A stretch of DNA of 64,000 bases from Mobula hypostoma (lineage: Eukaryota): NCBI RefSeq assembly GCF_963921235.1, contig NC_086097.1:93560001-93624000 (forward strand), in the 5' to 3' direction. The notes under the pieces were generated by a model. It saw nothing but the letters and a program-made list of their open reading frames with translations. It made no database searches and was not told where the DNA came from. Positions 1 to 61,839 of this stretch are shown one piece after another; the first letter of the stretch is position 1; each line of letters begins with the position of its first letter. The translations under genes were made by a program, and so were the position numbers.

Positions 1-2041
1 ATTACCACCACCGGGGTCACCAGCAAAGGAAGCTACTACCTTGGACTGTACTGTGCTGACAGAGACCTCCCATGCCTCTATTGCATTCTCCTCCTCTCTT
101 ACTTCTCTGATCAGCTCGACAAACGAGGGAGGGAGGTGCATCTTATGAGACAGTCGGAGATCCCAAGCGATCAGGCCCTGTGACTGTGTGTCTTTTGCCA
201 CTTGGTCCATTCTTAACTGATTTACCTCAGCCATTTGAATGACCCTTCTACTCTGCAAACAATTTAGCTGCCTCTCTAGCCAAAAAATGTAGGCGGAAAG
301 TTTCTCCCACTTCTCCTGAAACATGTTCTGAAATTCCATCATAAGCTCCATTGGGCTTCTGTTGCACCAAAAGCATTTTCTAGTGCTTGCATGTAGCCCA
401 CAGAAGTATCGAAAGGGTTCTGTGTCTTTACTGATCTCACTACATCAGCAGCCGGCCCCCTCAAACTTTCAACCAATCACTGCCATCAGAGCACTGTCAC
501 TCATCCGGCATCTGAGAGGTCTGCTCCGCCCAAGTCTCATACTCCTCCTCCCTGTCGGGGGTAGGGGTTATTCCCGAGAACATCCTGAGCTGACGATAAC
601 TAGGATTCTCTGCCCGTGCACTTTGCCATTTATCCGCCAGGGGCGTAAGGGCTGATACCAACTCAGAGTGCTCACCCCTCGCTGAAGGACTCATTAAACC
701 TTCCAAATCAGACCACTCCTTCCCCTCGCTCCACCGAAATAACAGCACCCTGACTTTGAAGTCTCCGCCCCCGGCTACGGGAAACTCAGCTTCTGATTGG
801 GCACCTTCTCCTACACTCCCCTCCTCCAGGAAAGTATGGACAGCCCACGGCCCCCTCTCCTGGGGTCCCAATAGTACCAGGCAGTTCCACTGCCGTTACG
901 TCAGCGCTAGTCTGAACTAAAACAAAGACTTTGGCCACCATTTTGTCAAAGCTTAGGCTCATGTTGTAACTCCTCCTGAAGCTTTACTGGTACTTAAAGT
1001 TCAAATTAACAATTCATTGGGAATATGAATATCTACCCCACTCAATACACACACACATTCGTTACCGGTAACCTCGTGTATTCACACCACTGCTCAACCC
1101 CTTCAGCGTCCATAACCACGTATCATACAACACACATAAAAGTTGCTGGTGAACGCAGCAGGCCAGGCAGCATCTCTAGGAAGAGGTACAGTCGACGTTA
1201 CGGGCCGAGACCCTTCATCAGGACTCATAATCACTCTACCAGACAATAGCTTTACACAACCCAGTGGATCAATGCTCAGGGCAATCACACAGCATCCAAT
1301 GAAATCGTTCCCAGACGGGGCCCCCACAATGAAACCAACTGGTTTCCTTGGCTGCATAAGTCTGGGAAGTACACTCTCTGGTCCCGTCAAGCCCGTGAGA
1401 TTGAGATGGCTCTCCCACTCCAAACCCCGGTTCATGTGGATGCAGTGTAATATGCTACCCTGTTACAACTCAGTGCCAAGAAATAACAGACAGCACACTG
1501 CATGCGATTAAAGGAATTACGTTTGTGAATCTTAACTTAACTAAAGGGTTAGTAAAGAAAAGAAAGAGGAAACAAAAAGGGCACATTATAATTAACTCTT
1601 TGAGAGTTGGAGCTCAACTCTTCCAAAAGTCATACCTATTCACTGATCCTCAGTAGCCCCTGGCATGTTGCACCATCAAATCACGGTCCTCCACTGGGTC
1701 AAATCCATCGACCGGTTCTCTCCAGCGTCTTCTCTCTTCCTCCCATGCTGAACAAAAGCCCCAGCTCACACTGGTGTCAGGCACTTAACACAAAAACACA
1801 CTCGCCTCATTTGACGGCTCGCATTCCAAAGTACCCGTTATCTCTAACCATGACCCAAACTACTGCCCTGAATCTCATGCCTTGAAACTCCTGGTCTGAA
1901 ACTCATGCCCTGAATCTCATGCCCTGAAACTCCTGCCCTGAATCTCCTGCCCTGAAACCACAGCCCTGAATCTCATGCCCTTCTTCTGCTTCTACAGAAA
2001 GGCCGTTACGTTAGCAGTGAAGCCCTTCCCAGGGTGTTACA
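1..2041 (-). mobile_element. Degenerate Ty3/Gypsy element, 5' part: LTR, PBS and PNMA-like gag (runs off the window start)
   Basis: Minus-strand gag YRQLRMFSGITPTPDREEEYETWAEQ then LVESLRGPAADVV...LENAFG...FVELIREVREEE (PNMA/MOAP1-type capsid), with stops and frameshifts. LTR and a tRNA-Pro-like PBS (TGGGGGCCCCGTCTGGGA, about 1309-1326) lie upstream. Confidence 0.8.
1330..2041 (-). repeat. 5' LTR of the PNMA-gag Gypsy element, containing a 14-bp tandem repeat (about 1863-1980)
   Basis: Minus strand begins TGTAACA and ends TTTCA just before the PBS; internal tandem units CCCTGAATCTCATG. Confidence 0.65.
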
Positions 2042-2940
2042 TCTGCAGACACTGGAAATCCAAGCAACACCCACAAAGTGCTGGAGGAACTCAGCAGACC
2101 AGGCAGCCTCTATGAAAAAGAGTAAACAGTCAACATTTTGGGACGAGACCCTTCGTCAGGACTGGAAAAAAAGTTGAGAAGTCAGAGCAAGAAGGTGGAG
2201 GGGGAAGGAGGTAGGAGATTGGTGAAAGTGGGAGGGGAGGGGTGAAGTAAAGAACTGGGAAGCTGATAGGTGAAAGAGATAAAGGGCTGGAGAAGGGGGA
2301 AGGGGTATGATAGGAGAAGGTAGAAGATTATGGAATAAAGGGAAGGGGGATAGGTGGGTAAGGAGATGAGGTGAGAGAGGGAATGGGAATGGGGAATGGT
2401 GAGGCGGGGGCATCACTTGAAGTTTGGGAAATCAATGTTCATGCCATCAGGTTGGAGGCTACCCAAACGGAATATAAGGTTTTGTTCCTCCAACCTGAGT
2501 GTGGCCTCATCACGGCAGTAGGGGAGGCCATGGACAGACATGTCAGAATGGAAGTAAAATTGAAGTAGGTAGCCCACCAGGAGATCCTGCTTTTTCTGGT
2601 GGATGGAGTTTAAGTGCTCGCCGATATACAGGAGGCCACACCGGGAGCACCGGATACAGTAGATGACCCCAAAAGACTCACAGGTGAAATGCCGCCTCAT
2701 CTGGAAGGACTGTTTGGGGTCCTGATTGGTAGTGAGGGAGGAGGTGTAGGGGCAGGTGTAGCACTTGTTCCGCTTGCAAGGATAAGTGCCAGGAGGAAGA
2801 TCAGTGGGGAGGGACGAATGGACAAGGGAGTCATGTAGGATCCCTGCGGAAAGCAGAAAGTGAGGGGTTGGGGATGGAGGGCAAGATGTGGTTGGGGTGG
2901 GATTCCATTGGAGATGGTGGAAGTTATGGAGAAGCTTCCT
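2042..2940 (-). mobile_element. Penelope-like element 3' fragment (GIY-YIG endonuclease plus terminal repeat)
   Basis: ORF 2413-2985 contains PCKRNKCYTC...TCESFGVIYCIRCSRCGLLYIGE and EQNLIFRLGSLQPDGMN; degenerate hammerhead motif at 2128-2163. Confidence 0.8.
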
Positions 2941-4234
2941 TGTAAGATTTATTGTAACACAGTGAATCCAGTGCCCTTTATTCATTTTGTTCTTACTCCT
3001 GAGATTAAGTGTCCAACAATAATTTAGAATACTTAATTCTTAATCACTGAGATCTGGGATCTTCACACAACCTTAAAGAGCCTTAGGAGTGCATGGACTG
3101 TTCTGCCCATTGAGAACATGGTTACATAACAATCACTCTTGGTTTCCTGGTCTTAGCACTATTCTGTGGTGCTGATGGCTACTGCATCTCATAGTTTGCT
3201 GTGCAAGGGAGATCAGGTGAACTCCATACTTCAGGAGAGGAAAGTTCATTTACTTGTTAAGCCCACAGAGGCTGACAGAGCAGGCATGTACATTCACCCA
3301 CACTGCAGGCTGCCCTGAACAGTGGGAGAAAATAAAAAAATTCCGACATTAGAAACTCAAAATAAAAACAGAAAGTTCTGGAAACACGGATAATGTTTAG
3401 ACATGAGAACAAACTCTGATCTAACCCTTTTCTCTCTCCACGCATGCCAGCTGAGTGTTTCCAGCATTTTCCATTTTTCTTCTCCACATTGTAAACATTC
3501 ACGGAGAGCTTCTTGCCAGCCACCTTTGAGAATGGTTGCCGTGGCCTTAGTGGATAAAGCTCACATCTTGTGCGGGTTGTGTCTTTCAGATGGACGTTAA
3601 AGTCTCTCTGGCTCCTTGTGGTCACTTGCCCAATCCTCCTTATCATTGCAACATCCATCCATACAATAGTTGACCCCCACCCTCTCTCTGGATCTCCAAA
3701 GCAGGAAGCATGTGGCTTGCATTGATTGCACCTGTTGTGCTGAGAACTGCAAGGTCTTGCAACAGCAGTGCGGAGAGTTGGCAATGCTGTGCTATAAACA
3801 TGGACATTTTACTCTGTGGGTCTTTTGTAGACTTGCATTCCAACAGTGACAGCACTTCTAGAGCACTCAGCTGACTATCAGTTCCACATGATCATCAGCC
3901 ATGATCATATTGGCCTGTTGTTTGAAAAGTCCTGTGGACATTTAAAACAGCTCAAAGGGCTTTGACAGCAGCAAGCTGTTAAAAGACTGTCAAGGTTAGG
4001 ATCCATTGCACTGAGTAGCACTGCAAGCTGATGCAATGGCAAAGCTCTGAAAACTATTTATATGCAGGGAACTAGGTGAATTTCTGTGCTGTGCTGAGAA
4101 AAGGGTTGAAGATTAACTGCCACAGCTCTCCCACTGCACACGTCCTATCCAACTTCATAGTCACCTCAAAGCAGGAGTGTGCCCTTTTCTGCACTGACAT
4201 TCCTGGATAAAGAAAGTAGGCGAGGGGGTTCACT

Positions 4235-4730: not shown

Positions 4731-4806
4731 GGTCCCTTCTTTTCTGGAAAAGCTGGATTTAAATAAATATTATTTAATATTTATTTATATAAATATTTAT
4801 TTATAT

Positions 4807-23525: not shown

Positions 23526-24482
23526 AGCTCCCGTGTGTTGGAGAGTACTGCATATTATGTCTTTCCAGTTACCAAATAACACTTATCACTTCTTTGCTAG
23601 TACAAAGCTAAGTCCTCTTATTTCTGTTTCCCAATCACCTTCCTATTTTAACCAACATACAGAACTGTGCAAAAGTCTTGGGTACCATAACTATATGCAG
23701 AACGGTATATTTAAATATTGAATGTGTTCTTCCTTGCAGTCAGGCAGGTGAGGTGATTTCCATCATTTGATGCATATGAACTTGCAAATGAATAATCTCA
23801 ATGGTGAAATCAGGTATCGCCTGTCATGCATTACCTGTGCGAAGTTGAGGGGTACGACCCACTGTATAAATGATCTGGTAAGACAAAGAACTATTTTGCT
23901 TGGCATAATAAATTGAGGCGAAAGTTCCATAAGGTCCAGCTTGTTGTAAGGATCTCACTGGATGAAAGAACAATACAGTGAATTGGAACGGAGGCCAAGG
24001 CACACAGTTGTTTCAACAGGGTTTTATGTTGAATTTATTTTTGATAATCCTGGAGTATTTGGGTTGCATAAATCATAAAGTCAAACAGCATTGAAAAACT
24101 GAAAAGTCAATTTGCACTAATCCCTACATTCCCATCAACTCACTCCCCTGCCCCCTATTCTACCAATTACCAGGAGTTGTTTACAGTGGTCAATTCATCT
24201 TCCAATTCTTTGGGATGTGGGAGAGGATGGGGATGCAGTCTCAGGCAGAACATGCGGACTCCACAGAGCTAGCACTGGAGGTAACTGGAGTTGTGAGGCA
24301 GCAGGACTGTGTGTTTCACTCAGCACTCTGCTGCCTGGTAGGGCTGAAGGGGTTAAAATTGAGTCCAGTATCACTGTTTATTCAGACATGAGAGAATTCC
24401 ATAATTTGCTGTGATGGCAAATGAAATGTTGTAGATGTTTGTAAAATGACTTTCAAATCTCTTACTAACTCTTCCTTCAGTT

Positions 24483-24518
24483 AGTCCTGACGAAGGGTCT
24501 CGACCTGAAACGTCGACT
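24483..24518 (+). ncRNA. Minimal type I hammerhead ribozyme motif in a Penelope-like terminal fragment (about 24450-24575)
   Basis: AGTC-CTGACGA-AGGGTCTCGACCT-GAAAC-GTC-GACT: intact core, stem I AGTC/GACT, slightly altered stem II. Confidence 0.65.
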
Positions 24519-25239
24519 GTACCTCTTCCTAGAGATGCTGCCTGGCCTGCTGCATTCACCAGCAACTTTGATGTGAGTTGTAGATGTTACTGTGATCCTG
24601 ATGCACAGTCATCGGAAATCGAAGTGTGTTCATGGCCTTGGCCAAGTTTATATTCTGTCCAAGCTTGGAGATATTCCATGTTGTGTAAATACATTGTGAT
24701 AATGTGTGTGTTTGAATATGAATACTTTATATTACAAAGTCCTTGTACATTGCAGCAGGCCTTTGCCAATTCATGAGAAGAATTATCCACTCTATTTCAG
24801 CCAATGCCTCAAGAACTTAATCCACCACGAAGGCTTCCAGATCTGGTTACTTGTACATCTTAAATCTAAATAAATGCTCATGCCTTGAATAGACTTTGCA
24901 GTGGAGTAGTACCAAGGAGACAAGAAGTTGCAGATGCTGGAATCTAGAGCAACAAACAATCTACTGGAGGAACTCAGCAGGGCAAACAGCATCTCTAGGC
25001 GAAAAGGGATTGTCGATGTTTTGAGTCAAATCCTGCATCAGAAGCCCATGGAACATGAGTCAATAACATACCTCTTTCAGCTTACTCTGTCATTCAATTG
25101 GAACATAGCTGAACTGTACCTCATCCTTATTTTGCCTGCCTATGAAATGTATCCTCTTCTTCGTCTTGTTTTACGGCAGTTGGCACCCAGTTTAATGGTG
25201 CATTACTGCCACCTTCTGCTCTGGAGTGTGCAATAGACT

Positions 25240-26590: not shown

Positions 26591-26679
26591 AAATGAAGGA
26601 AGTTAAATAATCTGAAAAAGGAAGATCATCATCCTAAAAATTAACGTTCTTTTTCCAGAAGCTGCTGAGTTTAGACAAG

Positions 26680-27929: not shown

Positions 27930-29440
27930 TTAGATATTTTATTGATCCCGAAGGAAATTACAGTGTCTAGGTACCATTACAAGTGCACAGATATAAATAT
28001 TCGAAGAGAAGTAGAAAGAATAAAAAATAAGTTACCATAAACAGTTAGCTGGGGGGGAGGGGTCATCACTTCCCTGGCTATAGGTTGACTCATTATAGAG
28101 CCTAATGGCCGAGGGTAGAAACAATCTCATATAGCACTCTTTGGAGCAGCACAGTTGTCTTGGTCTGTTACTGAAAGTGCTCCTCTGTTCAGCCAAGGTG
28201 GTATGCAGAGGGGGGAAACATTGTCCAGAATTGCCAGGATTTTTTGTAGGGTCCTTTCTTCTACCACAGCCTCCAGTGTGTCTAGTTTGACTCCTATAAC
28301 TGAACCAGAGTCTTTCTAATCAGTTTATTGAGCCTGCTGGCATCACCTGTCTTGATGCCATTGCCCCAGCACATCACCACATAGAAGACTGTACTAGTGT
28401 CAACAGACTGGTGGAACATGTGAATGAGAGGCCTGCATACTCCAAAGGACCTCAGTCTCCTCAGGAAGTAGAGGTGACTCTGGCCCTTCTTGTACACGGC
28501 CTCTGTGCTGGTGTTCCACTCAGGTCTGTCATCCAGGTGCACCCCCAGATACTTGTAGGTCCTCACCACATTCACGTCCTCACCATCAATAGTAACAGGG
28601 AGCAGTGCAGGCTTTGACTTCTGGAAGTCCATCACCATCTCCTGTGTCATACTAATGTTGAGCTGCAGATGAGTCATTTGACAAAGTCCTCCACCAGGGC
28701 CCTGTATTCAGCCTCCTGTCCTCCCTGTCTATACACCTGTCTATTGCAGTTATCAGAGAATTTCTGCAGATGATAAGACTCAGTGTTATATCTAAACTCT
28801 GAGGTATACAGAGTAAATAGGAAGGGAACCAATACTCTGGGGCCCCAGTGCTGTTTATAGTCATGTCTGACATACAGCTCTGAAGATGCACAAACTGTGG
28901 TCTGCCAATCAGAAAGTCCATTATCCAGGATACAATGGAGGTGCCAACCTGCATTGAATGAAGCTTTTCCCCCAGCAATGAGGACTATGGTACCAAAGGC
29001 ATTTGAGAAATCAAGCAACATGATCCTCAGTGCTGCCCTGATTATCCAAATGGGAGTAAGCTCTGTTCAGAAGGTAGATGACAGCATCGTCAACTCCAAT
29101 GTGCTCCTGGTAAGCAAACTGCGGGGGACTGAGGACTGATCTGGCCAGGGGTCAGATGTGAGCCCAGACCGGCCTCTCTAGGGTCTTCATGGTGTGTGAG
29201 GTCAGGGCCACTCGACGGTAGTCATTCAAGACTTTCGGTTGGCCCTCCTTGGGTACTGGGACCACAACTGATGTTTTCCACACAGTCGGGAGGAACCCTT
29301 TCTAGGCTGAGACTCAGAGTGAAAATGGGCTGGAGAACTCCACACAGCTGCTCAGCACCCTCCTCCAGGACCTTGGGGTTCGCACCATCCGGTCCCAATG
29401 CTGAGCTTCCCCAGAGCCCTTCTCACCTGCTCAGTAGAGA
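27930..29440 (-). mobile_element. Rex1/Babar-like LINE, decayed RT and 3' end
   Basis: LDFSNAFGTI, INSTGAP, LFTLYTSEF...LQKFSD, YKYLGVHLDD...YFLRRLRSFGV. Confidence 0.85.
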
Positions 29441-32859: not shown

Positions 32860-33969
32860 TTTGCCAGGGGGATGGGACCCTGAGTGATCGAGCAGTGAAA
32901 GGAGTGCATGGAGTAAAGCCAGATCTAACATATAGAGAGGCTTTGAGGAAAGAGAAGCAGAATAAACAGAGTAAAGGTAGTAAGGTAGAAGGGCTGAAGT
33001 GTGTGTACCTCAATGCAAGAAGCATCAGGAACAAAGGTGATGAGCTGAGAGCTTGGATGCATACATGGAATTATGATGTAGTGGCCATTATAGAGATGTA
33101 GCTGGCACCAGGGCAGGAATGGATTCTCAATATTCCTGGATTTCAGTGCTTTAAAAGGGATAGTTGGGGGGGGGGGAGGGGAGGAGGGGTGGCATTACTG
33201 GTCAGGGATACTATTACAGCTACAGAAAGTGTGGGTAATATAGCAGGATCTTCTTTTGAGTCAGTATGGGTGGAAGTCAGGAACAGGAAGGGAGCAGTTA
33301 CTCTACTGGGGGTATTCTATAGGCCCCCTGGTAACAGCAGAGATACAGGGGAGCAGATTGGGAGGCAGATTTTGGAAAGGTGCAAAAATAACAGGGTTGT
33401 TATCATGGGTGACTTTAACTTCCCTAATATTGATTGGCACCTGATTAGTTCCAAGGGTTTAGATGGGGCAGAGTTTGTTAAGTGCGTCCAGGACGGATTC
33501 CTGTCACAGTATGTTGACAGGCTGACCGGGGGAATGCCATACTAGATCTAGTACTAGGTAATGAACCAGGTCAGGTCACAGATCTCTCAGTGGGTGAGCA
33601 TCTGGGGGACAGTGACCACCACTCCCTGGCCTTTAGCATTATCATGGAAAAGAATAGAATCAGAGAGGACAGGAAAATTTTTAATTGGAGAAGGGCAAAT
33701 TATGAGTCTATAAGACTAGAACTTGCGGGTGTGAATTGGGATGATGTTTTTGCAGGGAAATGTACTAAGAACATCTGGTCAATGTTTAGGGATGTCTTGC
33801 AGGATGTCAGAGATAAATTTGTCCCGGTGAGGAAGATAAAGAATAGTAGGGTGAAGGAACCATGGGTGACAAGTGAGGTGGAGAATCTAGTCAGGTGGAA
33901 GAAGGCAGCATACATGAGGTTTAGGAAGCAAGGATCAGATAGGTCTATTGAGGAATATAGGGAAGCAAG

Positions 33970-35787
33970 CTGTGTACATACATCTACTGATGCTTCTGGA
34001 CACATCTTCAGTGATATTCCTGGAATCATTGGGTGTTTCGGGTCTTTCAACATCATACAACCTCCTCCAGGTGACCCAGCCGGTGCTGATCAGACCCCAG
34101 CTTGTGTCCAGATGGCTAGCTACTTATGACTCCATGGCTCCCCTCTTTTGAGCCACAGCCATCTTGAGGCCCTCTCTGTCGCATCGGTGGTACTGCGGAT
34201 GGCTCTCCTCTTCCTCTCTCCCTCGATGCCCAAAACACTGAAGGCTCTAACTAAAGAACGGGCTACAAATCCTCTACAACCAACCTCCACTGGGAGACAC
34301 CTCGCTCTCCATCCAGCCTGCTGGCAATTTCTGACCAGTCCTGCGTACTTGGAGAGCTTCCTTTCAAAGGCCTCCTCCAAGCTATCTTCCCATGGGACTG
34401 GCAGCTCCAGCAGCACCACTTGCTTAGTAGACTCAGACACTAGGACAATGTCTGGTCACAGGGTGGTGGCTGTGATATGGTTGGGGAACTTCAGCTGCCC
34501 TTCGAGGTCCACCAACAGCTGCCAGTCCGTTGCAGAGGTCAGAATGCCTGCAGATGTTCTTTTGGCAGGTATTGGCTGCTCCCCAGCTCTGACAAAGGCA
34601 ATGGTCTGCTTGGGGGGTCGGGACCGCTTCACCCACTCAACTCTTGCGCTGACGGCTTCAGCGATGGTCTTCAGGACCCGATCATGCCTCCATCGGTACC
34701 GTCCCTCACCAAGTGCTCTTGCACAGCCGCTGAGGATGTGCTCCAGGGTTCCTCGCTTGGAGCACAGTGGGCACGCCGATGACTCTGCCTTGCCCCATGT
34801 GTGCAGGTTTGATGGGCTTGGAAGCACATCGTACACTGCCTGGATGAGAAATTGGATGCGGTGTGGTTCGGCTTTCCAAAGCTCAGCCCAGATCACTTTC
34901 CTCTCAACCGCATTCTCCCACCTTGTCCAAGCTCCCTGTTGCTTCATTCCCATCGCCTTGCAGGCTCCCATCTCCTCCACTACTGCTCTCACCTCCTCCT
35001 GAACTAGACGACGCCTTTCCTTCCCTCTGGTGTCCAGTTGGGGAGTTGGAAAGGATCCTAGCCCAGCTCGGCCTTGTGTGACCACTCCCACCAGCCTCCT
35101 GTGACGCAGCCTCGCCTCTGCCTCCTGAACAGCTTCCTCTGCCCTCCACTTCCTGCCAGTCTTCACTTGGATCCCTGCTCTAGCCACTTTCGGATCACTT
35201 GAGTCCCTATACTGTAGCACTTCTCTGGCTCTTGTTACCCTGAATTCTTCCTCCAAGGATTTGAAGGGCAGTTGCAGTTTGTTGTGGTGTCCATAGAGTG
35301 CGATGCTGCTCTTTGGCAGCCCCAGCCATCTCCTGAGGTGGTTGCTAACCCTCCTCTCTAAGGTTTCGACTGTCGAGATCGGAACTGCGTAGACGAGGAG
35401 GGGCCACAGGATTCTGGGAAGAATGCCATGCTGATACATCCAGGCTTTAAACTTCCCAGGTAGGCCAGACTTGTCCACAGATTTCAGCCAGTCATCCAAC
35501 TCGGTGCAGGTTGCCTGAATGGATGTTGCATCCCTTAAAGAGCTGTCAAAAACTTTGCCTAAGCTCTTGACTGGCTTTTCTGTGATGGTTGGCATGGCTG
35601 TGCCTGCGATGCTGAACTGGAACTTGTTCTCCACCTTCCTTTTCCTCAGCACCAGCAATCTTGATTTGGCAGGTTTGAAACGCATCCGGGCTCACTCCAC
35701 CAGCTTTTCGAACCCTTGCAGAATCCACCGGCAGCCTGGGACTGATTCTGTGGTGACTGTGAGGTCATCCATGAATGCCCGGATAGG
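33970..35787 (-). mobile_element. 5'-truncated HERO-like (R2-group, RLE) non-LTR retrotransposon inserted antisense in the CR1
   Basis: PIRAFMDDL (RT), FKPAKSR, CPLC...TLEHILSGC (CCHC), YRWRHD, PDIV...LELPVPWE...KLSKY (restriction-like endonuclease); I count two in-frame TGA stops. Confidence 0.85.
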
Positions 35788-38700
35788 AAAGAAAGGAGCT
35801 TAAGAAGGGGCTGAAGAGAGAAAGAAGGGGCCATGAGAAGGCCTTGGCGAGTAGGGTAAAGGAAAACCCCAAGGCATTCTTCAATTATGTGAAGAACAAA
35901 AGTATGACAGGAGTGAAGGTAGGACTGATTAGAGATAAAGGTGGGAAGATGTGCCTGGAGGTTGTGGAAGTGAGCGAGGTCCTCAATGAATACTTCTCTT
36001 CGGTATTCACCAATGAGAGGTGAGGACAATATGAGTGAGGTTGATGTTCTGGAGCATGTTTATATTAAGGGAGAAGAGGTGTTGGAGTTGTTAAAATACA
36101 TTAGGATGGATGTCCCCGGGGACTGACGGAATATTCCCCAGGCTGCTCCATGAGGTGAGGGAAGAGATTGCTGAGCCTCTGGCTAGGATCTTTATGTCCT
36201 CGTTGTCCACGGGAATGGTACCAGAGGACTGGAGGGAGGCGAATGTTGTCCCCTTGTTCAAAAAAGGTAGTAGGAATAGTCCGGGTAATTATAGACCAGT
36301 AAGCCTTACATCTGTGGTGGGAAAGCTGTTGGAAAAGATTCTTAGAGATAGGATCTATGGGCATTTAGAGAATCATGGTCTGATCAGGGACAGTCAGCAT
36401 AGCTTTGTGCAGGGCAGATCATGTCCATCAAGCCTGATAGAGTTCTTTGAGGAGCTGACCAGGCATATAGATGAGGGTAGTGCAGTGGATGTGATCTACA
36501 TGGATTTTAGTAAGGCATTTGACAAGGTTCCACACGGTAGGCTTATTCAGAAAGTTAGAAGGGATGGGATCTAGGGAAGTTTGGCCAGGTGGATTCAGAA
36601 TTGGCTTGCCTGCAGAAGGCAGAGGGTCATGGTGGAGGGATTACATTCGGATTGGAGGGTTGTGACAAGTGGTGTCCCACAAGGATCGGTTCTGGGACCT
36701 CTACTTTTCGTGATTTTTATTAACGACCTGGATGTGGGGGTAGAAGGGTGGGTTGGCAAGTTTGCAGATGACACAAAGGTTGGTGGTATTGTGGATAGTG
36801 TAGAGGATTGTCAGAGGTTGCAGAGAGACATTGATAGGATGCAGAAGTGGGCTGAGAAGTGGCAGATGGAGTTCAACCAGGAGAAGTGTGAGGTGGTACA
36901 CTTTGGAAGGACAAACTCCAAGGCAGCGTACAAAGTAAATGGCAGGATATTTGGTAGTGTGGAGGAGCAGAGTGATCTGGGGGTACATGTCCACAGATCC
37001 CTGAAAGTTGCCTCACAGGTAGATAGGGCAGATAAGAAAGCTTATGGGGTATTAGCTTTCATAAGTCGAGGGACAAAGTTTATGAGTCGTTAGGTAATGA
37101 TGCAGCTCTATAAAACTCTGGTTAGGCCACACTTGGAGTACTGTGTCCAGTTCTGGTCGCCTCACTATAGGAAGGATGTGGAAGCATTGGAAAGGGTACA
37201 GAGGAGATTTACTAGGATGTTGCCTGGTTTAGGGAGTATGCATTATGATCAGAGATCAAGGGAGCTAGGGCTTTACTCTTTGGAGAGAAGGAGGGTGAGA
37301 GGAGACATGATAGAGGTGTACAAGATATTAACAGGAATAGATAGAGTGGACAGCCAGCGCCTCTTCCTCAGGGCACCACTGCTCAATTCAAGAGGACATG
37401 GGTTTAAGGTAAGGGGTGGGAAGTTCAAGGGGGATAATAGAGGAAGGTTTTTTACTCAGAGAGTGGTTGGTGCGTGGAATGCACTGCCTGAGTCAGTGGT
37501 GGAGGCAGATACACTAGTGAAGTTTAAGAGACTACTAGACAGGTATATGGAGGAATCTAAGGTGGGGGCTTATATGGCAGGCAGGGTTTAAGGGTCGGCA
37601 CAACATTGTGGCCCGAAGGGCCTGCAATGTGCTGTACTATTCTATGTTCTATGTTCCATCTATAATAGAAGTCTTTTCTCTCCATTGCAAAACGTGGAAT
37701 GGGCCATTGTAAGGGGGCTTAAGGGGATGTTGGTGTGCATCATGGTGAATGAAAACAAACGAGGTAGAATGAAGGTCAGTGGGAACCCAAGAGTGCGGTC
37801 CACCACGATGGGAGGTAGGAGGAGATGCAAAGGAACTGAATTTACAAAAGAGGCCAACCAGGTGGTCGTGGCATCAGGAATAAAATTGCTTGGCACTTGT
37901 AACGGCTACCCATATACCAACTCTGCCATGGACAGCTGCAGAACCTCTTTTGGAGCTGTTCTGAGCCCCAGCAGGAGACGATCATGCCTACACTCATCGA
38001 TCAGGGAAGCCCTCAGAGCGGCCTTTAAGGAGCGGTGAAACCACTCACGTAGGCCGTTGGACTGCGGGTGATACGCTGTGATGTAGACTAACACTGAATT
38101 CTGGGCCATTGCAACCCAGAGGTCTGATATGGATTGGAGACCATGGTCAGAGCAAATATCAGATGGGTTGCTAAACTGATGAACGTCCAAGCCACGTCTG
38201 CAGCCATCGTCGATGCTAGAGGGACAACCTCACGCCACCCGATGGTATGGTCCACCATGGTAAGGAGATGTGTGAAACTGCGGGAGGGGGAAAGAGGACT
38301 AATAAAGCCCATACTGACTTGGTCAAACTGTCACTCAGTAACCTCAAAAAGGTGCCAATAGCACTTGAACATGATGGTTAATTTTTGCCTACTGGCACTC
38401 CACACAGGACACAATCCAATCACACATGATCTTTCCAAGCCCTTGCCAAACAAACTTTAGTGCAACCAGTTTCTGTGAGGCCTTCCGGCCCGGATACGAG
38501 AGGCCACGTATGGAGTCAAACACAGTCTACCTCCAGTCTGCGGACACTATGGGGCGAGGGCGACCGGTTGAGACATCACACAGGAGGGAAACCCCAGTCT
38601 CCTCGAACTTAATGTCAGAAAATCGCAGGCCCATGACTGCTGTTCGGTAAACCTGGACCTCTGGGTCAGTAACTTGGCTGGCTTCCATGCCAGCGTAGTC

Positions 38701-40876: not shown

Positions 40877-42049
40877 CTCTATACTTTCAAGAATGCATTG
40901 CCTCAAACAATATTTCAATGTTACCCCCAAACCTGCTTCAGAAAGACTTGGGTGAACACCTGAATGCACTAGGGCGAGAAGAGGACAGCCAACAATTTGC
41001 TCTGGCACAGAAAGAATCCATTTAACTGTCAGGTCCATGAGAGCAATTCCATCAGCTCCTTCCCCCCTCCTACCTTCCTGTGTCCCACTGCTTCGTCCCT
41101 TTCACAGAGCCAAAAGTTCCCCTTCAATTCCTTCTGCCGTTAACCTACACAGAAGGAAATTTGTGGTGGCTAATTAACTCTCCAGCACACCTTTGGATGG
41201 AAACTAGAGTCCAGGGTGGGGGGTGGGGGGAACCATGCATTCAGAGAGAATGAGGAAACTCCACGGTATCAAACCCAGGTCTCTGGAGCTATGAAGCAGC
41301 AGTTAGCTGCTCTGCCACCATCTTATCATTGTTTCAAAGTACTCCTTCAAAAACTTCTTCTGAAGTGACCTATAATACACATGCCTGTTGGCTAACCTTC
41401 TGAAAGGAAACTTATAAATGTTTGCAATCTTTATGCTACGACGTGACCTTCATACACTGATCTACTTAACTTTTGCAAACTATATTTGGCCAGAAGTTAC
41501 CAAGCTATCTAATTGACTTTAATTGAACCAAGTTCATAAATGTTCCTCCAGCATTAATGAATTTCAAAGTCTGCCGACTGGTTTCACTTTCAGCCTAACT
41601 GTACAAATTAGAAATTATGCTTTGCTTGAAATTAGTTCTGCAGCCCCAGAGGCAACGTTTCTCCATCCATCTAAGTGTGACTCCTCCCATCAGGAATTCA
41701 AAGGATCTGTCTTTACTCATTTCCAGTTTCCACTTGGCTAGCCCATGCTTGATCTTTCTTCCTGTGTACTCACCATGAGGCATCCCAAGTCACCCCATAA
41801 CTGCATTATTAGACAGTGACTCCAAGCCAATGCAGGACATATTTCGATAGGTGGGCATGAGCTTGGTTAAAGTAGCATCTTAAAGAGAAAAAAGGGAGTT
41901 CTTGGTTAATGTATTTCATCTCTAACTTAGGCTTATCCGTGGCACGTTGACTGAAAGATGGGAGTTAATGTTACCAGCAGAATCAGGTGGTGGTGTAATC
42001 ACCTTAACAGGGCTGATGTCATTGACTCTGAAAGCCTATTGAAGTACAT

Positions 42050-43730
42050 ACACAAACGCAGGAGATTCTGCAGATGCTGGAAATGCAGAGCAACACACGC
42101 AAAACTCTGGAAGGAAGGAACACAGTAGGTCAGGCAGCATCTGTGGAGAGGACGCAAACATGAGGAATTCTGCAGATGCTGGAAATTCAAGCAACACACA
42201 TCAAAGTTGCTGGTGAACGCAGCAGGCCAGGCAGCATCTCTAGGAAGAGGTACAGTCGACGTTTCGGGCCGAGACCCTTCGTCAGGACTAACTGAAGGAA
42301 GAGATAGTAAGAGATTTGAAAGGGGGAGGGGGAGGGGGAGATCTGAAATGATAGGAGAAGACAGGAGGGAGCCAAGAGCTGGACAGGTGATTGGCAAAGG
42401 GGATATGAGAGGGTCATGGGACAGGAGGCCCAGGGAGAAGGAAAAGGGGGAGGGGGGAAAAACCCAGAGGATGGGCAAGGGGTATAGTGAGAGGGACAGA
42501 GAGAGAAAAAGGAGAGAGAGAGAAAGAATGTGTCTATATAAATAAGTAACGGATGGGGTACAAAGGGGAGGAGGGGCATTCCCTTACCACCATTCAGGGC
42601 CCCAGACAGTCACTTCACCTGTGAGTCGGCTGGGGTGTGCGTCTGGTGCTCCCGATGTGGCCTTCTATATATTGGTGAGACCTGACGCAGACTGGGAGAT
42701 CATTTCGCTGAACACCTACGCTCTGTCCGCCAGAGAAAGCAGGATCTCCCAGTGGCCACACATTTTAATTCCACATCCCATTCCCATTCTGATATGTCTA
42801 TCCACGGCCTCCTCTACTTTAAAGATGAAGCCACACTCAGGTTGGAGGAACAACACCTTATATTCCGTCTGGGTAGCCTCCAACCTGATGGCATGAACAT
42901 TGACTTCTCAAACTTCTGCTAATGCCCCACCTCCCCCTCGTACCCCATCCGTTATTTATTTATATACACACATGTTCTTTCTCTCTCTCTCCTTTTTCTC
43001 CCTCTGTCCCTCTCACTATACCCCTTGCCCATCCTCTGGGTTTTCCCCCCCTCCCCCTTTTCTTTCTCCCTGGGCCTCCTGTCCCATGATCCTCTCATAT
43101 CCCTTTTGCCAATCACCTGTCCAGCTCTTGGGTCCATCCCTTCCCCTCCTGTCTTCTCCTATCATTCTGGATCTCCCTTTCCCCCTCCCACTTTCAAATC
43201 TCTTACTAGCCCTTCTTTCAGTTAGTCCTGACGAAGGGTCTCGGCCCAAAACATCGACTGTACCTCTTCCTAGAGATGCTGCCTGGCCTGCTGCGTTCAC
43301 CAGCAACTTTGATGTGTGTTGATCTATGGAAAGGGTTTGTTTTGGGCCAAGACCCTTCTTCAGAACTGGAAGGGAATAAGGAAGAAGCCAAAATATAAAG
43401 GTGGGGGAAGGGGAAGGAGTGCAAGTTAGAAAGTGATAGATGAAACCAGGTGATGGGGAAGGTGGGTGGGTGGGGGAGAGGGATGAAGTGAGAAGCTGGG
43501 AAGTGATAGGTGGAAAAGGTAAAGGGCTGTAGAAGATGGAATCTGATAGGAGAGGAAAGTAAACCATGGGAGAAAAGGAAAGGGGGACCAGACAGTTGTG
43601 ATCGGCAAGAGGGTGAGAAGGGAGCCGGAACAGGGAATGGGAAAAGAGAGCAGGGGATGGGGGAAGGAATTGCCGGAGGTTAGAGAAATCTATGTTCATG
43701 CTGACAGGTTGGAGGCTACCCAAATTAATT
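42050..43730. mobile_element. Cluster of Penelope-like fragments, including an inverted pair (about 42194-42580 minus, 42580-43319 plus)
   Basis: GIY-YIG remnant (CSRCGLLYIGET...LGDHFAEH...EQHLIFRLGSLQPDGMN) between inverted terminal repeats; a further minus copy at 43340-43725. Confidence 0.85.
42254..42289 (-). ncRNA. Minimal type I hammerhead ribozyme motif (best-preserved copy)
   Basis: Minus strand AGTC-CTGACGA-A-GGG-TCTCGG-CCC-GAAAC-GTC-GACT: CUGANGA and GAAA core, GUC triplet, stems I and II paired, palindromic ACGT in place of stem III. Confidence 0.75.
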
Positions 43731-45129
43731 ATGGGGTACAGTACGTACGCAGTTCTTTTTAAACAAATAGGTTCCATATATATTATAAAAATTATAGGAG
43801 ACAAGTTTTGACAAAATTGGTTATTAATGTCCAAGTTTCTCTCAAATAACGTTTACTGGTCTACAAAAGAGCAACTTTAAGAAAGGTTGCAGCCTCAGGA
43901 CAGCTTGTTAAATTAAACACGGAGAACAGCTTCTGTACTTTGCATGAAAATATTCCCAATTCTATCTGTTTGGTAATGGAGCTTGGCGTTGGAGAGAGCC
44001 TTTGAAGAGGGGAAAGTGAAGAGGGTACAGTGGTCTAGAGAGGGAGTTTTGGAGGTTAGGATCCAGGCAGTCACTGGTGGAGAATGGATGAATACTGACA
44101 TTGTATAATAGGTACAAAATGAAAGAACAATTGACTTCTGGAATGTGGTAGAGTTGCGGGGGGAGAGGGGAGTAGGGTTGGTATCTGGTGTGGAGGTTTT
44201 TGAAAACAAGGACAGGAATTCTAAAGTTAGTGGGACCTAGTGAAGACTCACAGGGTTTGATGGCGGTGTGTAGCGGGTGGAAGATAGGAGGCTGATTGAG
44301 ACAGCAAGTCAGCAAATCAATGATGAGGACTTCCATTTCCTGCAACTCTGAATTTCTTCGACTGCTTGACAGCTCAAGTGGTGAGAAGCTAATTACTAAA
44401 TCTTGCTGCAGGCAAACAGTAAATTCGGCTATTTTTGATCACAGCATGTGGTAACAAGCTGTCCAAGCTCTCCAGCAGCCCATTCCCCAGGCTAGGGAAG
44501 GGGTGCAGGCTGAAAATGCTTGCCCCCCTGCCCCATGAACGTAAGTGATCTACTAAGTCCACTACTCTTCTTTGAACAAACATACATGAACATTTGGTAC
44601 AATGTAGTCCCCATGACGTCTAGTTATGAGAGATGTTGTGCCCAAATACATAGTCCTATTGTTTGTTGTGGACAATATAATACATTCCTCTGAGAGATCT
44701 GTGATGCTTACAAATGCCTCCTCTTGCAAGTACAGCTACTAATGTTTAGGGATTGCAAAAGAAATTTTCCCTAACTTATCCTCACATGATTGTGTACCCT
44801 GACTCTATAGCTGTATCATTGCCGATAAAGGCTAAGAGTGTTGTAATCATCTTCCCTTTTTATACAGTATGCTTTGAAGGAAAATACCACTGACTAACTT
44901 ATTTCAATATAATCATTTCAATATGTTTATGATGTATTTCTGTAGTGGGTCTCTTCCAGCTCCCTGTTCCTCAGATCTTGAATCATAAGCAGCAATCTTC
45001 CCTCATCAGTAAGCTATCTGCTGGTTCAGTTTGTGTCCCTGATGGCCTATTTGGCTTGAGTTCACACACTCGCCAATGCAATGGCAGTTGGCTAAGCCTT
45101 TTGGCAGCTCTGTCAAAACTTCCCAGTTA

Positions 45130-54137: not shown

Positions 54138-55424
54138 AGAAAGCTTGCCTATAAGACAGTTCACACAGTGTGTGGAGAGCACCCTCAGCCCACGTCTCTG
54201 GAGTGAGGAATTGTACTTGTACCTGTACTTGGTTTGACTCAAACAAGTGGATCTCCTCTGAGGCACAGCTGGTGAATGGGTACAGGACCGAAAGAGGAAG
54301 GGAAAGGACATTTGGACAGGAGATGTTGGAAATGTCATTCGGTCATGGAGCACAAAAATGACCAACTAATCCACTCTGACCTCCAAGTACCGATCTACAC
54401 ATACTTACCCAGATTCCTCTCAACTACCACTCTGCTTTACTTACAATTTACAGTGGCCAGTTAGTCTATCAACTCCCACATCCTTGCAACGTGGAAGCAA
54501 TCAGGAGGGTCCGTGGTGACAGAGAGAGTATGCCAAGTCTACACAGATAGCACTGCATTTCCAACTGGGTCCCTGGAGCTGGGAAGGAGCAGTTTTCCCA
54601 GCCATGCCATTATGTCAAAGTGGGGGGAGCAAGAATGGCAGGCCCAGAGAAGGAGATAAACTATGGCAGTAATTTACTGTGTAAAAAACCAAGGACTAAT
54701 TGATACTGGAGATTGTGGAGAAGAGGAGGTAAAGAGAAGATTGCATTTTCCAGTGATAATGTGTGGGAATACCCAAAGCTGAACCTTTTTCCATCAGGAG
54801 CTTCTCTTCTCTCCTGAACTACCACCTCCAACTTCTAACCACCCTGGCCCTCATTTAGACTTTGTTGAAGCTGGGCAGTAAGTAATGGGCTTGAATATCC
54901 CTTGACTCTGTTTTACATTACAAAGTGCACGTTTCTGAAACAAGCCTATCAGTTTGACCCCTGAAATATCTGTTCCAGAGCTCTTGGCCCTATTCCCTAA
55001 CTCCTAACTGTACGTCTAACTTGTAACGTCAAACACAAAATATTAGTCCTTAAAAAGAACCTTTAATCCACAAAACAAAGCCTTTGACCTTTTACCTGCG
55101 GCTGCTCAGTAAAACCCTAACACCCAATTTCACCCTAAAGTATCCCAGTCATAACCTTCAGCATAACTGCTTCTTCTTCTTTTGAGAAATGAGCATTTAT
55201 GTTGAACCTTCCAACATATTCTCATCCTCGGCTGGATAATCACAAACTGGACACGGTTAGTGAAGCGCCTGGTCCAAATTGGAGTGATGGTGGCCAGTGA
55301 AACTATGACTCATGGGAGAAGAGAGTAACAAACATAATGGGAGAAGGTTCAATTATCCCGTTGCCCATAATCATCCTTTTGTTGGTTAATAGATTGACTA
55401 ATTGTAGACTCTAGCGATCCTTTG

Positions 55425-56115
55425 TCATAGTCATAGTCATAGTCATACTTTATTGATCCCGGGGGAAATTGGTTTTCGTTGGTTTTGTGCTCATCCGGTA
55501 CATTATGTAGTGGATGGTAGACATTGACCAAGATGGCATGCAACTTGGACAGCATCCTCTTTTCAGACACCACCATCAGAGAGTCCAGTTCCATCCCCAC
55601 AACATCACTGGCCTTATGAATGAGTTTGTTGATTCTGTTGGTGTCTGCTACCCTCAGCCTGCTGCCCCAGCACACAACAGCAAACATGATCGCACTGGCC
55701 ACCACAGACTCATAGACCATCCTCAGCATCGTCCGGCAGATGTTAAAGGACCTCAGTCTCCTCAGGAAATAGAGACGGCTCTGACCCTTCTTGTAGACAG
55801 CCTCAGTGTTCTTTGACCAGTCCAGTTTATTGTCAATTTGTATCCCTAGGTATTTGTAATCCTCCACCATGTCCACACTGGTACCTTAGCTCTCCTCAGG
55901 TCTACCACCAGCTCCTTAGTCTTTTTCACATTAAGCTGCAGATAATTCTGCTCACACCATGTGACCAAGTTTCCTACCGTAGCCCTGTACTCAGCCTCAT
56001 CTCCCTTGCTGATGCATCCAACTATGGCAGAGTCATCAGAAAACTTCTGAAGATGACAAGACTCTGTGCAGTAGTTGAAGTCCGAGGTGTAAATGGTGAA
56101 GAGAAAGGGAGACAA
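55425..56115 (-). mobile_element. Rex1/Babar-like LINE fragment
   Basis: Near-identical to 6640-7270; LQKFSDDSAIVG; (ATGACT)n tail at 55425-55446. Confidence 0.88.
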
Positions 56116-56929
56116 GACAATCAATCCCTTTCACCATGTTACTGTCTCAAGTTGAATTGGGTCAGTTGCAAGCATTTCATCCTGGCTGGCCCCACTGATC
56201 GATTGCCCCTAAAGACGTACTTGTGGAACTCTGACCCTGGCTCAGTCACTTTCCGGAGGACTGTGGATTCTCCTGCTCTGAGATTCCAGTACTGTGTTTG
56301 GGGACTCCACATTCCATAAGCTCCACAGAAGTTGGCTTAGATCTGCTTACGCTGTCAACCCTGTTGTCAATCGGCAGCTCTAATGGGACCATCCTTGACA
56401 TTGGTATTGGAAGCTGCAGACCTGAGCTGCACCTCCTCATCACTATCAGGCATATCCCCATTTGTTCTAAACACTTCCCTGTTCAGTAGATTATCATCAC
56501 AACTCAATTCATACCCAACTAATTTCCCAGTTTAGGATTTCCGTCCTGAACCTGGAACATACAGGCTTGCACAGTCACTTTCATAATCACAAATCCCACA
56601 TTTCCTGGTCTGAATTGTTTGTGCTTGTGAAGTTCGGGGATTTTGCTGCCAAGAGTCATTTCATTGATTTTGTAGGAATTGGTTGTTGTTCCCCTTTTTT
56701 GAAAAGTTATCAGTTGCTGAGGGCTCATCCTGGAAGCCTGAACAATGCTAAAGCATTTTGCAATGTTACCACTGATTGCTCCCACTGTAGCAGTCGTTCC
56801 TCATGGTAGTTTGGATTGTGCTTTTGCTTTGAGGAAATCGTTGAACCTTTAGGTGTGGTAGAAGGAAATGCCTCAACATGCTCCTTCACAAGTCTGAACT
56901 GCTTGTGAGAGACTGTGCTCCCACAGGTA

Positions 56930-59490: not shown

Positions 59491-60209
59491 TGACTGTATA
59501 CATTCTCTGATATTAAATTGAACCATTTGATTTGAACACCTTTGCAGTGGGGTGGCACGCTGTCTGCAGTTAGTGCTGCAACTTCAGAGCTCCAGTAACT
59601 TGGATTCAGTTCTGACCAGGTGCTGTCCATGTGGAGTTTGCACGTTCTGCCTGAGACAACGTGGGTTTTGTGGGCACTCTGACTTCCTCCCACATCCCAG
59701 AGGTGTATCGGTGTGTTTAACTGGCTACTGCAAATTGCACAGCAGTGTAGGTAAATAGCAAAAGAATTGTGAAGCTCAGAAAGGACCAAGGAAGTAAGAA
59801 GCGGGGAAATGGGGATTGCTCTGATGGCATGCAGTTGATGGGCAATTGACCTCTATTGTCTGTTAACACATAATGAATTTCTGAAAGGGGGAAGTGAGAT
59901 TTAGTGTATTAGTGAGAGAGCAGCACCTATTCCTGGGAAAAAGGTTTGAGGAACCTTTCTGGGAAGTCACTATTTCTTGGAAAAGGCTGTGACCCGTTGG
60001 GCAGCTGAATCTTCTTTTTCCAGTCTTGTACATTGCCAGCTGTTGCCGCAGCCAAGATGAGAGTGGTCAGTACATGGGGTTTGGAACAGTCGGTTTGCAC
60101 AGATTGTTTGTTTCTGCCCTCTCTCAGTAAAACCTGAAGGTGTTCTACCAACTCCAATAACGTCACCAACCAGGCTTTGTTGCAAAAGCAGCCAGTAATG
60201 AATGTAAGT

Positions 60210-61190
60210 AACACACATCAAAGTTGCTGGTGAACACAGCAGGCCAGGCAGCATCTCTAGGAAGAGGTACAGTCGATGTTTCAGGCCGAGACCCTTCGTC
60301 AGGACTAACTGAAGGAAGAGCTAGTAAGAGATTTAAAATGGGACGGGGAGGGGGAGATCCAAAATGATAGGAGAAGACAGGAGGGGGAGGGATGGAGCCA
60401 AGAGCTGGACAGTTGATTGGCGAAAGAGATAAATGAGAGGATCATGGGACGGGAGGCCCAGGGAGAAAGAAAGGGGGAGGGGGGAAGCCCAGAGGATGGG
60501 CAATAACGGACGGGGTACGAGGGGGAGGTGGGGCATTAACAGAAGTTTGAGAAGTCAATATTTACGCCATCAGGTTGGAGGCTACCCAGACGGAATATAA
60601 GGTGTTGTTCCTCCAACCTGAGTGTGGCTTCATCTTTACAGTAGAGGAGGCCGTGGATAGACATATCAGAATGGGAATGGGATGTGGAATTAAAATGTGT
60701 GGCCACTGGGAGATCCTGCTTTCTCTGGTGGACAGAGCGTAGGTGTTCAGCAAAACACTCTCCCAGTCTGCGTCAGGTCTCGCCAATATATTGACTCACT
60801 TCACCTGTGAGTCGGCTGGGGTGATATACTGCATCCGGTGCTCCCGATGAGGTGTCTATTATAAGCCTATGGACTCTCACAGCTATCTGGACTATTCCTC
60901 TTCTCACCCTGTCTCTTGCAAAAATGCCATCTTGCAATTCCTCCGTCTCCGCCGCATCTGCTCTCAGGATGAGGCTTTTCATTCCAGGATGAAGGAGATG
61001 TCCTCCTTTTTTAAAGAAAGGGGCTTCCGTTCCTCCACCATCAACTCTGCTCTCAAACGCATCTCTCCCATTTCACGCACATCTGCTCTCACCCCATCCT
61101 CCCGCCACCCCACTAGGAATCGGGTGCCCCTTGTCCTCACCTGCCACCCAACCAGCCTCTGGGTCCAACATATAATTCTCTGTAACTTCC
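60210..61190. mobile_element. Penelope-like element with an internal inversion (3' end minus 60210-60792; RT C-terminal region plus 60795-61190)
   Basis: DSHSYLDYSSSHP..CKNAI..QFLRLRRICS...FKERGF; terminal repeat with hammerhead variant at 60271-60306. Confidence 0.85.
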
Positions 61191-61839
61191 TCGTGTTTGC
61201 AGTAATGAATATCACACTTTATATCTACCATGTTCAGTTTCACGGCAGGGCAAGGAGAGGACATCTTGCCCCTTCTGTAAGCTTGACCTCATCTAGAACA
61301 CTGCCATTGTGTCCTAAGCCATGCTTAAAAAGCCTTGTCCCAGTGCCTTGCTTCTCACTATGAACTGTCTCTCAGTCCAGCACTACCTTGTTCCTCCCAT
61401 CATAACTACCAGTTTCTCCAAACTCTTGCTGGGCTGTGCTGCTGTTACCTTCCCTTGGCCCAGAGCCAGACGTTGTCTAGTGAAACTCCAGTGCTGGACC
61501 TTGGGATATTTCACTGTGCCACTAGCACGACAACAACAAGTACTCTGATGCTGAACATCTGAAAAGTGAAGAGAAATTGCTGGGAGTACTCGACAGCTCA
61601 GGCAGCATTTGTGGAGAGTGAAACAGTTGGCTCACAGTATTGAACCAGTTTTGATGAAAAGTCTTCAACCTGCAACTTTAACTATGTCTCGAAAGGATTT
61701 GTCGGGTCTACTGAGTGTTTCCAGCATTCACTGGAACTATATAAAGGAGAGTTGTTGTTATGAACTATCAGTCAACATCAGAAATACAGATTGGCAGCGT
61801 GTTTGGGGAAAGAGCAAGCTTCTTTAGAATCCTGTATGC

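What the first reader, a model, noticed from the sequence alone, without database searches (positions are those of the whole stretch)
42254..42289. Family of minimal hammerhead ribozymes in Penelope-like termini, one perfect copy
Seen: minus strand AGTC CTGACGA A GGG TCTCGG CCC GAAAC GTC GACT, i.e. the hammerhead core, a 4-bp stem I, a 3-bp stem II, a GUC triplet and a self-complementary ACGT. Relatives occur at 24483-24518 (+, core intact), 60271-60306 (-, AUC triplet), 1190-1225 (-, GAAA to GTAA), 43224-43259 (+, GAAA to AAAA) and 2128-2163 (-, decayed). Established: Penelope-like elements carry minimal type I hammerheads that lack a stable stem III and can cleave as dimers. Inference: six copies in 64 kb imply a very large genomic population of catalytic-RNA motifs that is probably unannotated; several losses are at CpG sites.
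Basis: partly seen in the sequence, partly recalled or inferred. Interest (0 to 1): 0.7.

Follow-up and report, generated by a model that had tools for sequence, protein, structure and literature searches.

The report
Known-type hammerheads in ray jumping gene
These short repeated motifs are real minimal hammerhead-ribozyme sequences at the ends of a very abundant Penelope-type jumping gene in a ray genome, a kind of arrangement described in 2014, and the inserted copies were evidently made from RNA that was intact at this site.

Summary
Observation confirmed. All six motifs sit where stated. The 42254 copy matches the published minimal-hammerhead consensus of Penelope-like elements (PLEs) at every position (stem II is 4 bp, stem I 4 bp plus a U·G pair); a descriptor finds 3 sites in the window against 0.005 in shuffles. 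The carrier is a Neptune-type PLE whose endonuclease is 86-90% identical to Mobula and Hypanus proteins. 42152-43321 is one head-to-head insertion with a 13-bp target duplication: one arm ends 66 nt past the cut site, the other carries a further 40-nt tail. All six copies run through the cut site, none has an intact same-strand partner, and the naked motif folds into a closed rod, so protein-assisted cleavage (shown for an Anolis PLE) fits better than spontaneous dimers. In public contigs the block shared by old and young subfamilies ends at the hammerhead's boundaries, while CpGs in the core decay like flanking CpGs. Activity is untested. Known kind, new host lineage; this scan found the same kind earlier in a shark genome. 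A second, Poseidon-type hammerhead at 27134 resembles a liver-fluke motif.

The parts
42254..42289 (-). Minimal type I hammerhead, intact: stem I AGUC/GACU (plus U·G at 42290/42253), CUGACGA, extra A, stem II GGGU/GCCC with CUCG loop, GAAA, palindromic ACGU, predicted cut between 42258 and 42257
   Evidence: consensus in PMC4209133 Fig. S3
42152..42580 (-). Inverted pseudo-LTR arm; starts at the ORF stop codon, 368 of 401 aligned positions identical to the + arm
42152..42191 (-). 40-nt 'tail' present on this arm only
   Evidence: tail defined in PMC8557442 and PMC11167929
42291..42317 (-). Branch-point-like CTTACTA, pyrimidine tract and CAG/TTAG just 5' of stem I: candidate 3' splice site (inferred)
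   Evidence: D. virilis intron ends at helix I per PMC4209133
42581..42922 (+). 5'-truncated C-terminal GIY-YIG endonuclease of a Neptune-type PLE (CxxC before YIG, two His; one internal stop, a short deletion)
42921..43321 (+). Pseudo-LTR of the + arm, tail-less end 66 nt past the cut site
43224..43259 (+). Hammerhead copy with G12 to A and G16.2 to A (both CpG)
42139..42151 (+). Left target-site duplication (13 bp, 2 mismatches to the right copy)
43322..43334 (+). Right target-site duplication
43322..43737 (-). Older-subfamily pseudo-LTR split by the young insertion; its hammerhead (43332-43367) has lost the cut site and 3' stem I; it continues at 42151-42050
24449..24580 (+). 132-bp solo copy, hammerhead 24483-24518 with intact core, U-A and G·U in stem II; 12-bp duplication 24428-24439 / 24577-24588
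60204..61199 (.). Composite insertion with exact 11-bp duplication (60193-60203 / 61200-61210): minus arm endonuclease plus pseudo-LTR with hammerhead 60271-60306 (U11.1, G16.2 to A); plus arm endonuclease scrap, RT C-terminal piece and the end of the tail
1128..1225 (-). 98-bp solo copy starting at the first base of stem I; hammerhead 1190-1225 with A13 to U; possible 9-bp duplication
2042..3039 (-). Older-subfamily copy with linker zinc finger CX4CX2C, endonuclease, pseudo-LTR, decayed hammerhead 2128-2163 and tail

Best explanation
The motif is the minimal type I hammerhead of a Neptune-type Penelope-like element that has spread widely in a myliobatiform ray. Shown here: the sequence anatomy, the position about 300 nt after the endonuclease stop codon, target duplications, two discrete 3' ends (+66 and about +106 nt from the cut site). 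Inferred by analogy with the Anolis element: the RT-endonuclease protein binds the element's RNA, nicks both target strands and starts reverse transcription at two internal sites 3' of the hammerhead, which gives head-to-head insertions with a tail on one arm. The template was intact at the hammerhead (uncut, or re-ligated). The ribozyme is under selection in the transposing master lineages, rests in a closed rod (GACG pairs with CGUC) as naked RNA, and cuts slowly, most likely when the element's protein or a second copy in a tandem transcript refolds it, to process the element's transcript. The dispersed copies in this window are dead-on-arrival passengers decaying at CpG.
For: Exact fit to the published consensus CUGANGAH-G..C-GAAAN-palindrome-NUH. 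Endonuclease upstream in the same sense, 14 hits of 193 candidates, best 90% Mobula and 86% Hypanus; CX4CX2C linker and CxxC. Inverted arm, tail on one end and duplications as described for PLEs. 6 of 6 copies span the cut site; of the 5 young ones, 3 end at +66, one at +65 to +71, one at +106. In four sets of public contigs the commonest listed loose end is 42289, the first base of stem I, and 42252 is listed in three: old and young subfamilies share the hammerhead and differ on both sides. In related motifs from metagenome contigs, stem I positions left free by the pattern pair in 284 of 330 cells against 99, 68 and 67 when slid. Monomer rod -11.9 versus open fold -7.9 kcal/mol; active dimer -14.7 versus two rods -23.8. 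PMC11167929: no cleavage without protein, uncut RNA is the main substrate.
Against: No cleavage data for this family. Non-CpG variation in core and stems (1 of 24 positions listed) is not significantly below flanks (13 of 85; Fisher p=0.13), and 10 rows of that table were not shown. U11.1 makes up 38-61% of depth, so active lineages tolerated G10.1·U11.1. Nearest-neighbour energies omit core tertiary contacts and so understate the active folds. The protein-assisted mode was shown for a Poseidon element, not a Neptune one. No full-length element or RT tree was available. The metagenome motifs fall into few families (36 of 110 share one stem I) and are not independent. Run X1 may be the sample the window was assembled from.
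Confidence: 0.72

Rival explanations
1. Classical dimer model without protein: two copies in a tandem pLTR-ORF-pLTR transcript pair their ACGU palindromes and swap stem I, cut at both ends and may circularise; the circle is the template, which also explains copies spanning the site.
For: Palindromic ACGU is the major form; low cleavage of dimers and trimers of a schistosome motif in PMC4209133; a re-ligated template cannot be told from an uncut one in DNA.
Against: Active dimer is 9 kcal/mol worse than two rods and 17 worse than the extended duplex; no intact same-strand pair in the window; all 7 two-match metagenome loci (6 distinct) are head-to-head, none tandem; the Anolis motif showed no cleavage without protein.
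Confidence: 0.15
2. The motif is kept for a role other than cutting: it marks the exon start after an intron acceptor and is a structure read by the element's protein or by translation; catalysis is vestigial.
For: Branch-point-like and pyrimidine-CAG signals abut stem I in both subfamilies although their sequences differ; hammerhead mutants did not affect insertion in vitro, and no RNA ends were found at the site in Anolis; U11.1 is common.
Against: No non-CpG catalytic position is among the listed variants; the same core is kept from cnidarians to vertebrates; splicing evidence is thin: 1 of 2 ray gene models is compatible with the CAG acceptor.
Confidence: 0.11
3. Chance resemblance or host-domesticated regulatory ribozyme at this locus.
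For: The 42254 copy is intact while its sister arm has two losses.
Against: 3 descriptor hits versus 0.005 expected; clear transposon context; CpG loss of 7-14% per site in DNA runs makes an intact copy common (about 0.58 if losses were independent; arithmetic); a transcript through both arms would form a long hairpin.
Confidence: 0.02

Closest known systems
Minimal hammerheads (min-HHR) in pseudo-LTRs of metazoan Penelope-like elements (Cervera and De la Pena 2014, PMC4209133)
   Same: CUGANGAH, G10.1-C11.1, GAAA, palindromic CG, UC, short stem I, pyrimidine-rich 5' side, position after the GIY-YIG ORF, mostly solo truncated copies, opposite-strand pairs. Closest row by eye: Acropora digitifera Neptune (CUGACGAA GGG...GAAA C G U C).
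   Different: No cartilaginous fish in the Table S1 or Fig. S3 rows that I read; stem II is short (4 bp); about half the family has U11.1; abundance looks far above the 4,000-9,000 reported for coelacanth and Xenopus (rough extrapolation).
Poseidon element of Anolis carolinensis, PAc (Frangieh et al. 2024, PMC11167929)
   Same: Hammerhead upstream of two discrete 3' ends that define a tail; copies made from intact RNA; insertion into its own kind of repeat.
   Different: Different clade (Neptune-type linker here); ends at +66 and about +106 from the cut; no ATG at the start of stem II in these copies, whereas the PAc ORF starts there.
Neptune clade of endonuclease-bearing PLEs (as defined in Craig et al. 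2021, PMC8557442)
   Same: C-terminal GIY-YIG with CCHH, CX2-5CxxC linker, 5' truncation, inverted upstream copy, 30-40-bp tail at one end.
   Different: RT phylogeny not tested; no full-length copy in the window.
Canonical type I hammerheads and non-LTR retrozymes (Rfam hammerhead families; bioRxiv 10.64898/2026.07.22.740005)
   Same: Same catalytic core and type I topology.
   Different: No stem III, no 6-bp stem I with loop contacts, no Rfam match, not in tandem repeats.

Membership tests
PLE minimal hammerhead (Cervera 2014) | Core CUGANGA, GAAA, UH | tested here: met
   Intact in 42254 and 24483, and in 60271 apart from G16.2; broken in 1190, 43224, 2128
PLE minimal hammerhead (Cervera 2014) | Extra nucleotide between 9 and 10.1 | tested here: met
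   A in 6 of 6 copies
PLE minimal hammerhead (Cervera 2014) | G10.1-C11.1 closing stem II | tested here: met
   G-C in 42254; G·U in 2 of 6 copies and 38-61% of depth; G·U rows also occur in Fig. S3
PLE minimal hammerhead (Cervera 2014) | Palindromic 15.2-16.2, no stem III | tested here: met
   ACGU in 3 of 6 copies, CpG-decayed in 3
PLE minimal hammerhead (Cervera 2014) | Located in the terminal repeat after a GIY-YIG ORF | tested here: met
   About 270-300 nt after the stop in the 43224, 60271 and 2128 copies
PLE minimal hammerhead (Cervera 2014) | Structure conserved beyond flanks | tested here: inconclusive
   Subfamily boundaries coincide with the motif and relatives covary, but the position count is not significant, p=0.13
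PLE minimal hammerhead (Cervera 2014) | Self-cleavage (dimer or protein-assisted) | not testable with these tools
   Only assembled contigs were served, no raw RNA reads
Neptune-clade PLE | C-terminal GIY-YIG with CCHH | tested here: met
   CSRCGLLYIGE and downstream His residues; relatives P0001 and P0004 hit Pfam GIY-YIG just below its cut-off, the window fragment alone does not
Neptune-clade PLE | CX2-5CxxC zinc finger in the RT-EN linker | tested here: met
   CKRNKCYTC in the 2416-3039 copy and in P0001, P0002; truncated away in the 42581 copy
Neptune-clade PLE | Inverted upstream copy, 30-40-bp tail at one end, target duplication | tested here: met
   42152-43321 and 60204-61199
Neptune-clade PLE | Placement in the RT tree | not tested
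   No labelled reference RTs and no full RT at hand
Canonical type I hammerhead (Rfam) | Match to a covariance model; stem III and 6-bp stem I | tested here: not met
   No hammerhead family among 7 matches up to E=10
Non-LTR retrozyme | Tandem repeat units each with a hammerhead | tested here: not met
   Copies are dispersed or inverted; self-alignment shows no tandem array of the motif

The most novel reading that the evidence does not exclude
Ray genomes carry on the order of 100,000 intact, self-locked hammerheads, each behind a splice-acceptor-like signal. Whenever the element's protein is expressed it could switch them on in trans and cut host pre-mRNAs that contain sense copies: a transposon-gated, genome-wide RNA cleavage system, and the largest natural population of a ribozyme motif on record.
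Probability: 0.07. Interest if true: 0.75.

Novelty: new member of a known kind. Interest (0 to 1): 0.25.

Why it matters
It is mostly ordinary: hammerheads in Penelope repeats are the rule. Its use is as a test bed. The family is young and abundant, in a clade (Neptune) and lineage (rays) for which I found no study; its two fixed 3' ends extend the two-start-site model from Poseidon to Neptune; and thousands of natural variants, including a common G10.1·U11.1 form, let one ask what these ribozymes do for the element, which is still open.

Tried and rejected
No whole genome is held, so no genome-wide descriptor count. Rfam: no hammerhead match. Pfam on eight window fragments: 0 families. Expression: no RNA holder listed; runs guessed to be RNA were contigs only, so starts and ends of RNA could not be seen and nothing is concluded from them on expression or cleavage. 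Summed contig depth (16 in the flank, 1.2e7 at the motif in X1; 67 and 3.6e7 in X5) is not a copy number; it is used only as a sign of a very large family. Pattern scan of viral contigs: 0 hits. A conserved hairpin around the two 3' ends: consensus folding of 7 copies gave 5 pairs, -1.7 kcal/mol, no compensatory change, so not supported. The open frame through the motif (SPDEGSRPET...) as real coding: rejected, it is closed in the older subfamily and only 2 convincing hits of 4 were found among 1.84 billion representatives, both Mobula gene models that took up the repeat. Splice acceptor at stem I: inconclusive (1 of those 2 models compatible). Position-count test of core conservation: p=0.13. 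Lunse et al. on dimer cleavage was not held; I saw it only cited in PMC6765202, and it may list cartilaginous-fish examples. The supplements of the 2026 preprint, which name its one chondrichthyan genome, were not seen. Sequence look-up in earlier findings: nothing.

Full report
1. Observation. The six motifs are present as described, with 0-4 differences from the 42254 copy. On the minus strand 42254-42289 reads AGUC, CUGACGA, an extra A, GGGU-CUCG-GCCC, GAAA, C, G, U, C, GACU. Stem II is therefore 4 bp and stem I 4 bp plus a U·G pair. A descriptor written from the published minimal-hammerhead definition finds 3 sites in the window against a mean of 0.005 in 200 shuffles: 42254, 24483 and an unrelated motif at 27134. 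Rfam has no hammerhead match. 9 of 12 differences in the other five copies are at CpG.

2. Carrier. 43224 lies about 300 nt after the stop of a GIY-YIG fragment (42581-42922). Read with X at its one stop, it finds 14 proteins among 193 candidates, led by Mobula hypostoma (90%) and Hypanus sabinus (86%), so the host is most likely a myliobatiform ray (inference). The CxxC before YIG, the downstream histidines and a CX4CX2C linker in the 2416-3039 copy are the Neptune-type marks given in PMC8557442 (passages). No RT tree was built.

3. Insertion anatomy. 42152-43321 is one event: a minus arm from the stop codon outwards and a plus arm from within the endonuclease, 368 of 401 positions identical, flanked by a 13-bp duplication with 2 mismatches. 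It sits inside an older repeat end of the same kind, whose halves rejoin cleanly. The plus arm ends 66 nt past the predicted cut; the minus arm has a further 40 nt. 60204-61199 has an exact 11-bp duplication, a near tail-less minus arm and the end of the tail on the other side. 24449-24580 and 1128-1225 are short solo copies that also end at +66. Inverted upstream copies and a 30-40-bp tail on one end are standard PLE features. PMC11167929 (parts 1-2 of 4) explains the tail as two internal reverse-transcription starts and shows both target strands being extended; the structures here fit that model.

4. Family-wide view. No genome is held. Laying public contigs on 41950-42400 gave 141,013 (X1), 121,931 (X5, another organism label), 9,167 and 9,577 contigs; X1 may be the window's own sample. 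Depth is 16 in the flank and 1.2e7 at the motif in X1. The tool states this is no copy number, so I take it only as a sign of a very large family; 2 descriptor-passing copies in 64 kb would scale to about 30 per Mb if the window is typical. The commonest listed loose end in all four runs is 42289, the first base of stem I, and 42252 is listed in three (only 6 rows per run shown); the loose letters match the older subfamily, so the block shared by old and young subfamilies is the hammerhead itself. In the two DNA runs, CpG changes at G8, G12, C15.2, G16.2, C17 and G1.1 are 7-14%, like the flanking CpG (8-16%): inserted copies decay neutrally. C11.1 to U is 38-61%, too high for decay, so transposing lineages carried G10.1·U11.1. 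Outside CpG, 1 of 24 core and stem positions is listed as variable (a U·G to U-A change that keeps the pair) against 13 of 85 flank positions, p=0.13, with 10 rows hidden: suggestive only.

5. Relatives. Of 121 loci held, 113 distinct matches pair at stem I positions 1-4 in 105, 105, 82 and 63 cases and fall to about 20 beyond; 18 loci hit the ray RT-endonuclease. Pairing is 284 of 330 cells against 99, 68, 67 when slid (110 matches with full flanks). These are a few families, not independent samples. All 7 two-match loci (6 distinct) are head-to-head.

6. Mechanism. Shown: all six copies span the cut site, so the template was uncut or re-ligated. Computed: the naked 36-mer prefers a rod in which GACG pairs with CGUC (-11.9 versus -7.9 kcal/mol), as do 101 of 110 relatives (partly built into the pattern); the active double hammerhead (-14.7) is worse than two rods (-23.8), without tertiary contacts. 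No copy has an intact same-strand partner: 1190 and 2128 are both broken, and 43332 has lost its cut site. Published: low cleavage of dimers and none of monomers (PMC4209133, parts 1-2 of 4); cleavage only with the element's protein, and no effect of core mutants on insertion. Inferred: a gated, slow ribozyme that processes the element's transcript in master copies, inert in these passengers (0.72). Rivals: protein-free dimer and circular template (0.15); non-catalytic role tied to a splice acceptor (0.11). A branch-point-like motif, pyrimidine tract and CAG abut stem I in both subfamilies, as the D. virilis intron ends at helix I, but only 1 of 2 ray gene models that contain the repeat fits that acceptor.

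7. Novelty. The motif matches the consensus and rows of Fig. S3 of PMC4209133 (supplement parts 1-2 of 3); those rows include no cartilaginous fish. Searches found no paper on a ray or shark family; a 2026 preprint (part 1 of 5 and passages) reports hammerhead-bearing tandem retrozymes in one chondrichthyan genome, supplements unseen; Lunse et al. was not held. Passages only were read of PMC6765202, PMC2377424, PMC6155905 and PMC6515669. Verdict: new member of a known kind, interest 0.25.

Noticed in passing
window 26654-27220 (+), motif 27134-27173: A second minimal hammerhead family that passes the descriptor, behind a decayed Poseidon-type endonuclease (best close hits sharks, 50-53%). By eye it shares 35 of 40 nt, and similar flanks, with the Clonorchis sinensis (2) row of Cervera Fig. 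S3. The shark relative P0017 has flatworms as its nearest named non-shark hits (Trichobilharzia 56%, Clonorchis 52%; no bony fish named among 120 listed of 316). Possible old transfer between sharks or rays and parasitic flatworms; database bias not excluded, no tree built.
   Followed up: partly
window 17304-18314: Head-to-head Poseidon-type insertion with two decayed hammerheads of a third family near 17350-17390 (-) and 18225-18265 (+).
   Followed up: partly
window 4236-4733 (-): Older Neptune-type copy that appears to lack just the hammerhead, with a short repeat (CAGT / CTGT) at the junction: possibly a jump across the rod-like hairpin.
   Followed up: partly
window 20168-20393: Older head-to-head pair whose two arms both begin inside the hammerhead core, 9 nt apart.
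   Followed up: partly
window 42291-42317 (-) and 24455-24482 (+): Branch-point-like CTTACTAAC (exact in the 24483 copy), pyrimidine tract and CAG/TTAG directly before stem I.
   Followed up: partly
proteins P0137, P0138: Two Mobula gene models, one named STARD3 N-terminal-like isoform X3, contain a peptide read from this repeat; other ray models hold endonuclease-derived exons. Probably exonised repeats or annotation noise.
   Followed up: partly
window 42577-42580: The inverted arm starts exactly at the ORF stop codon, at an ATT on the + strand; the Anolis protein prefers ATT near the ORF-repeat junction. One case only.
   Followed up: no
window 6490-7396, 10027-12470, 14039-14359, 28294-29066, 33102-37591, 34120-35691, 55349-56130: The window is dense with other decayed retroelement and DNA-transposon frames; family names would be from recall and were not tested.
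   Followed up: no
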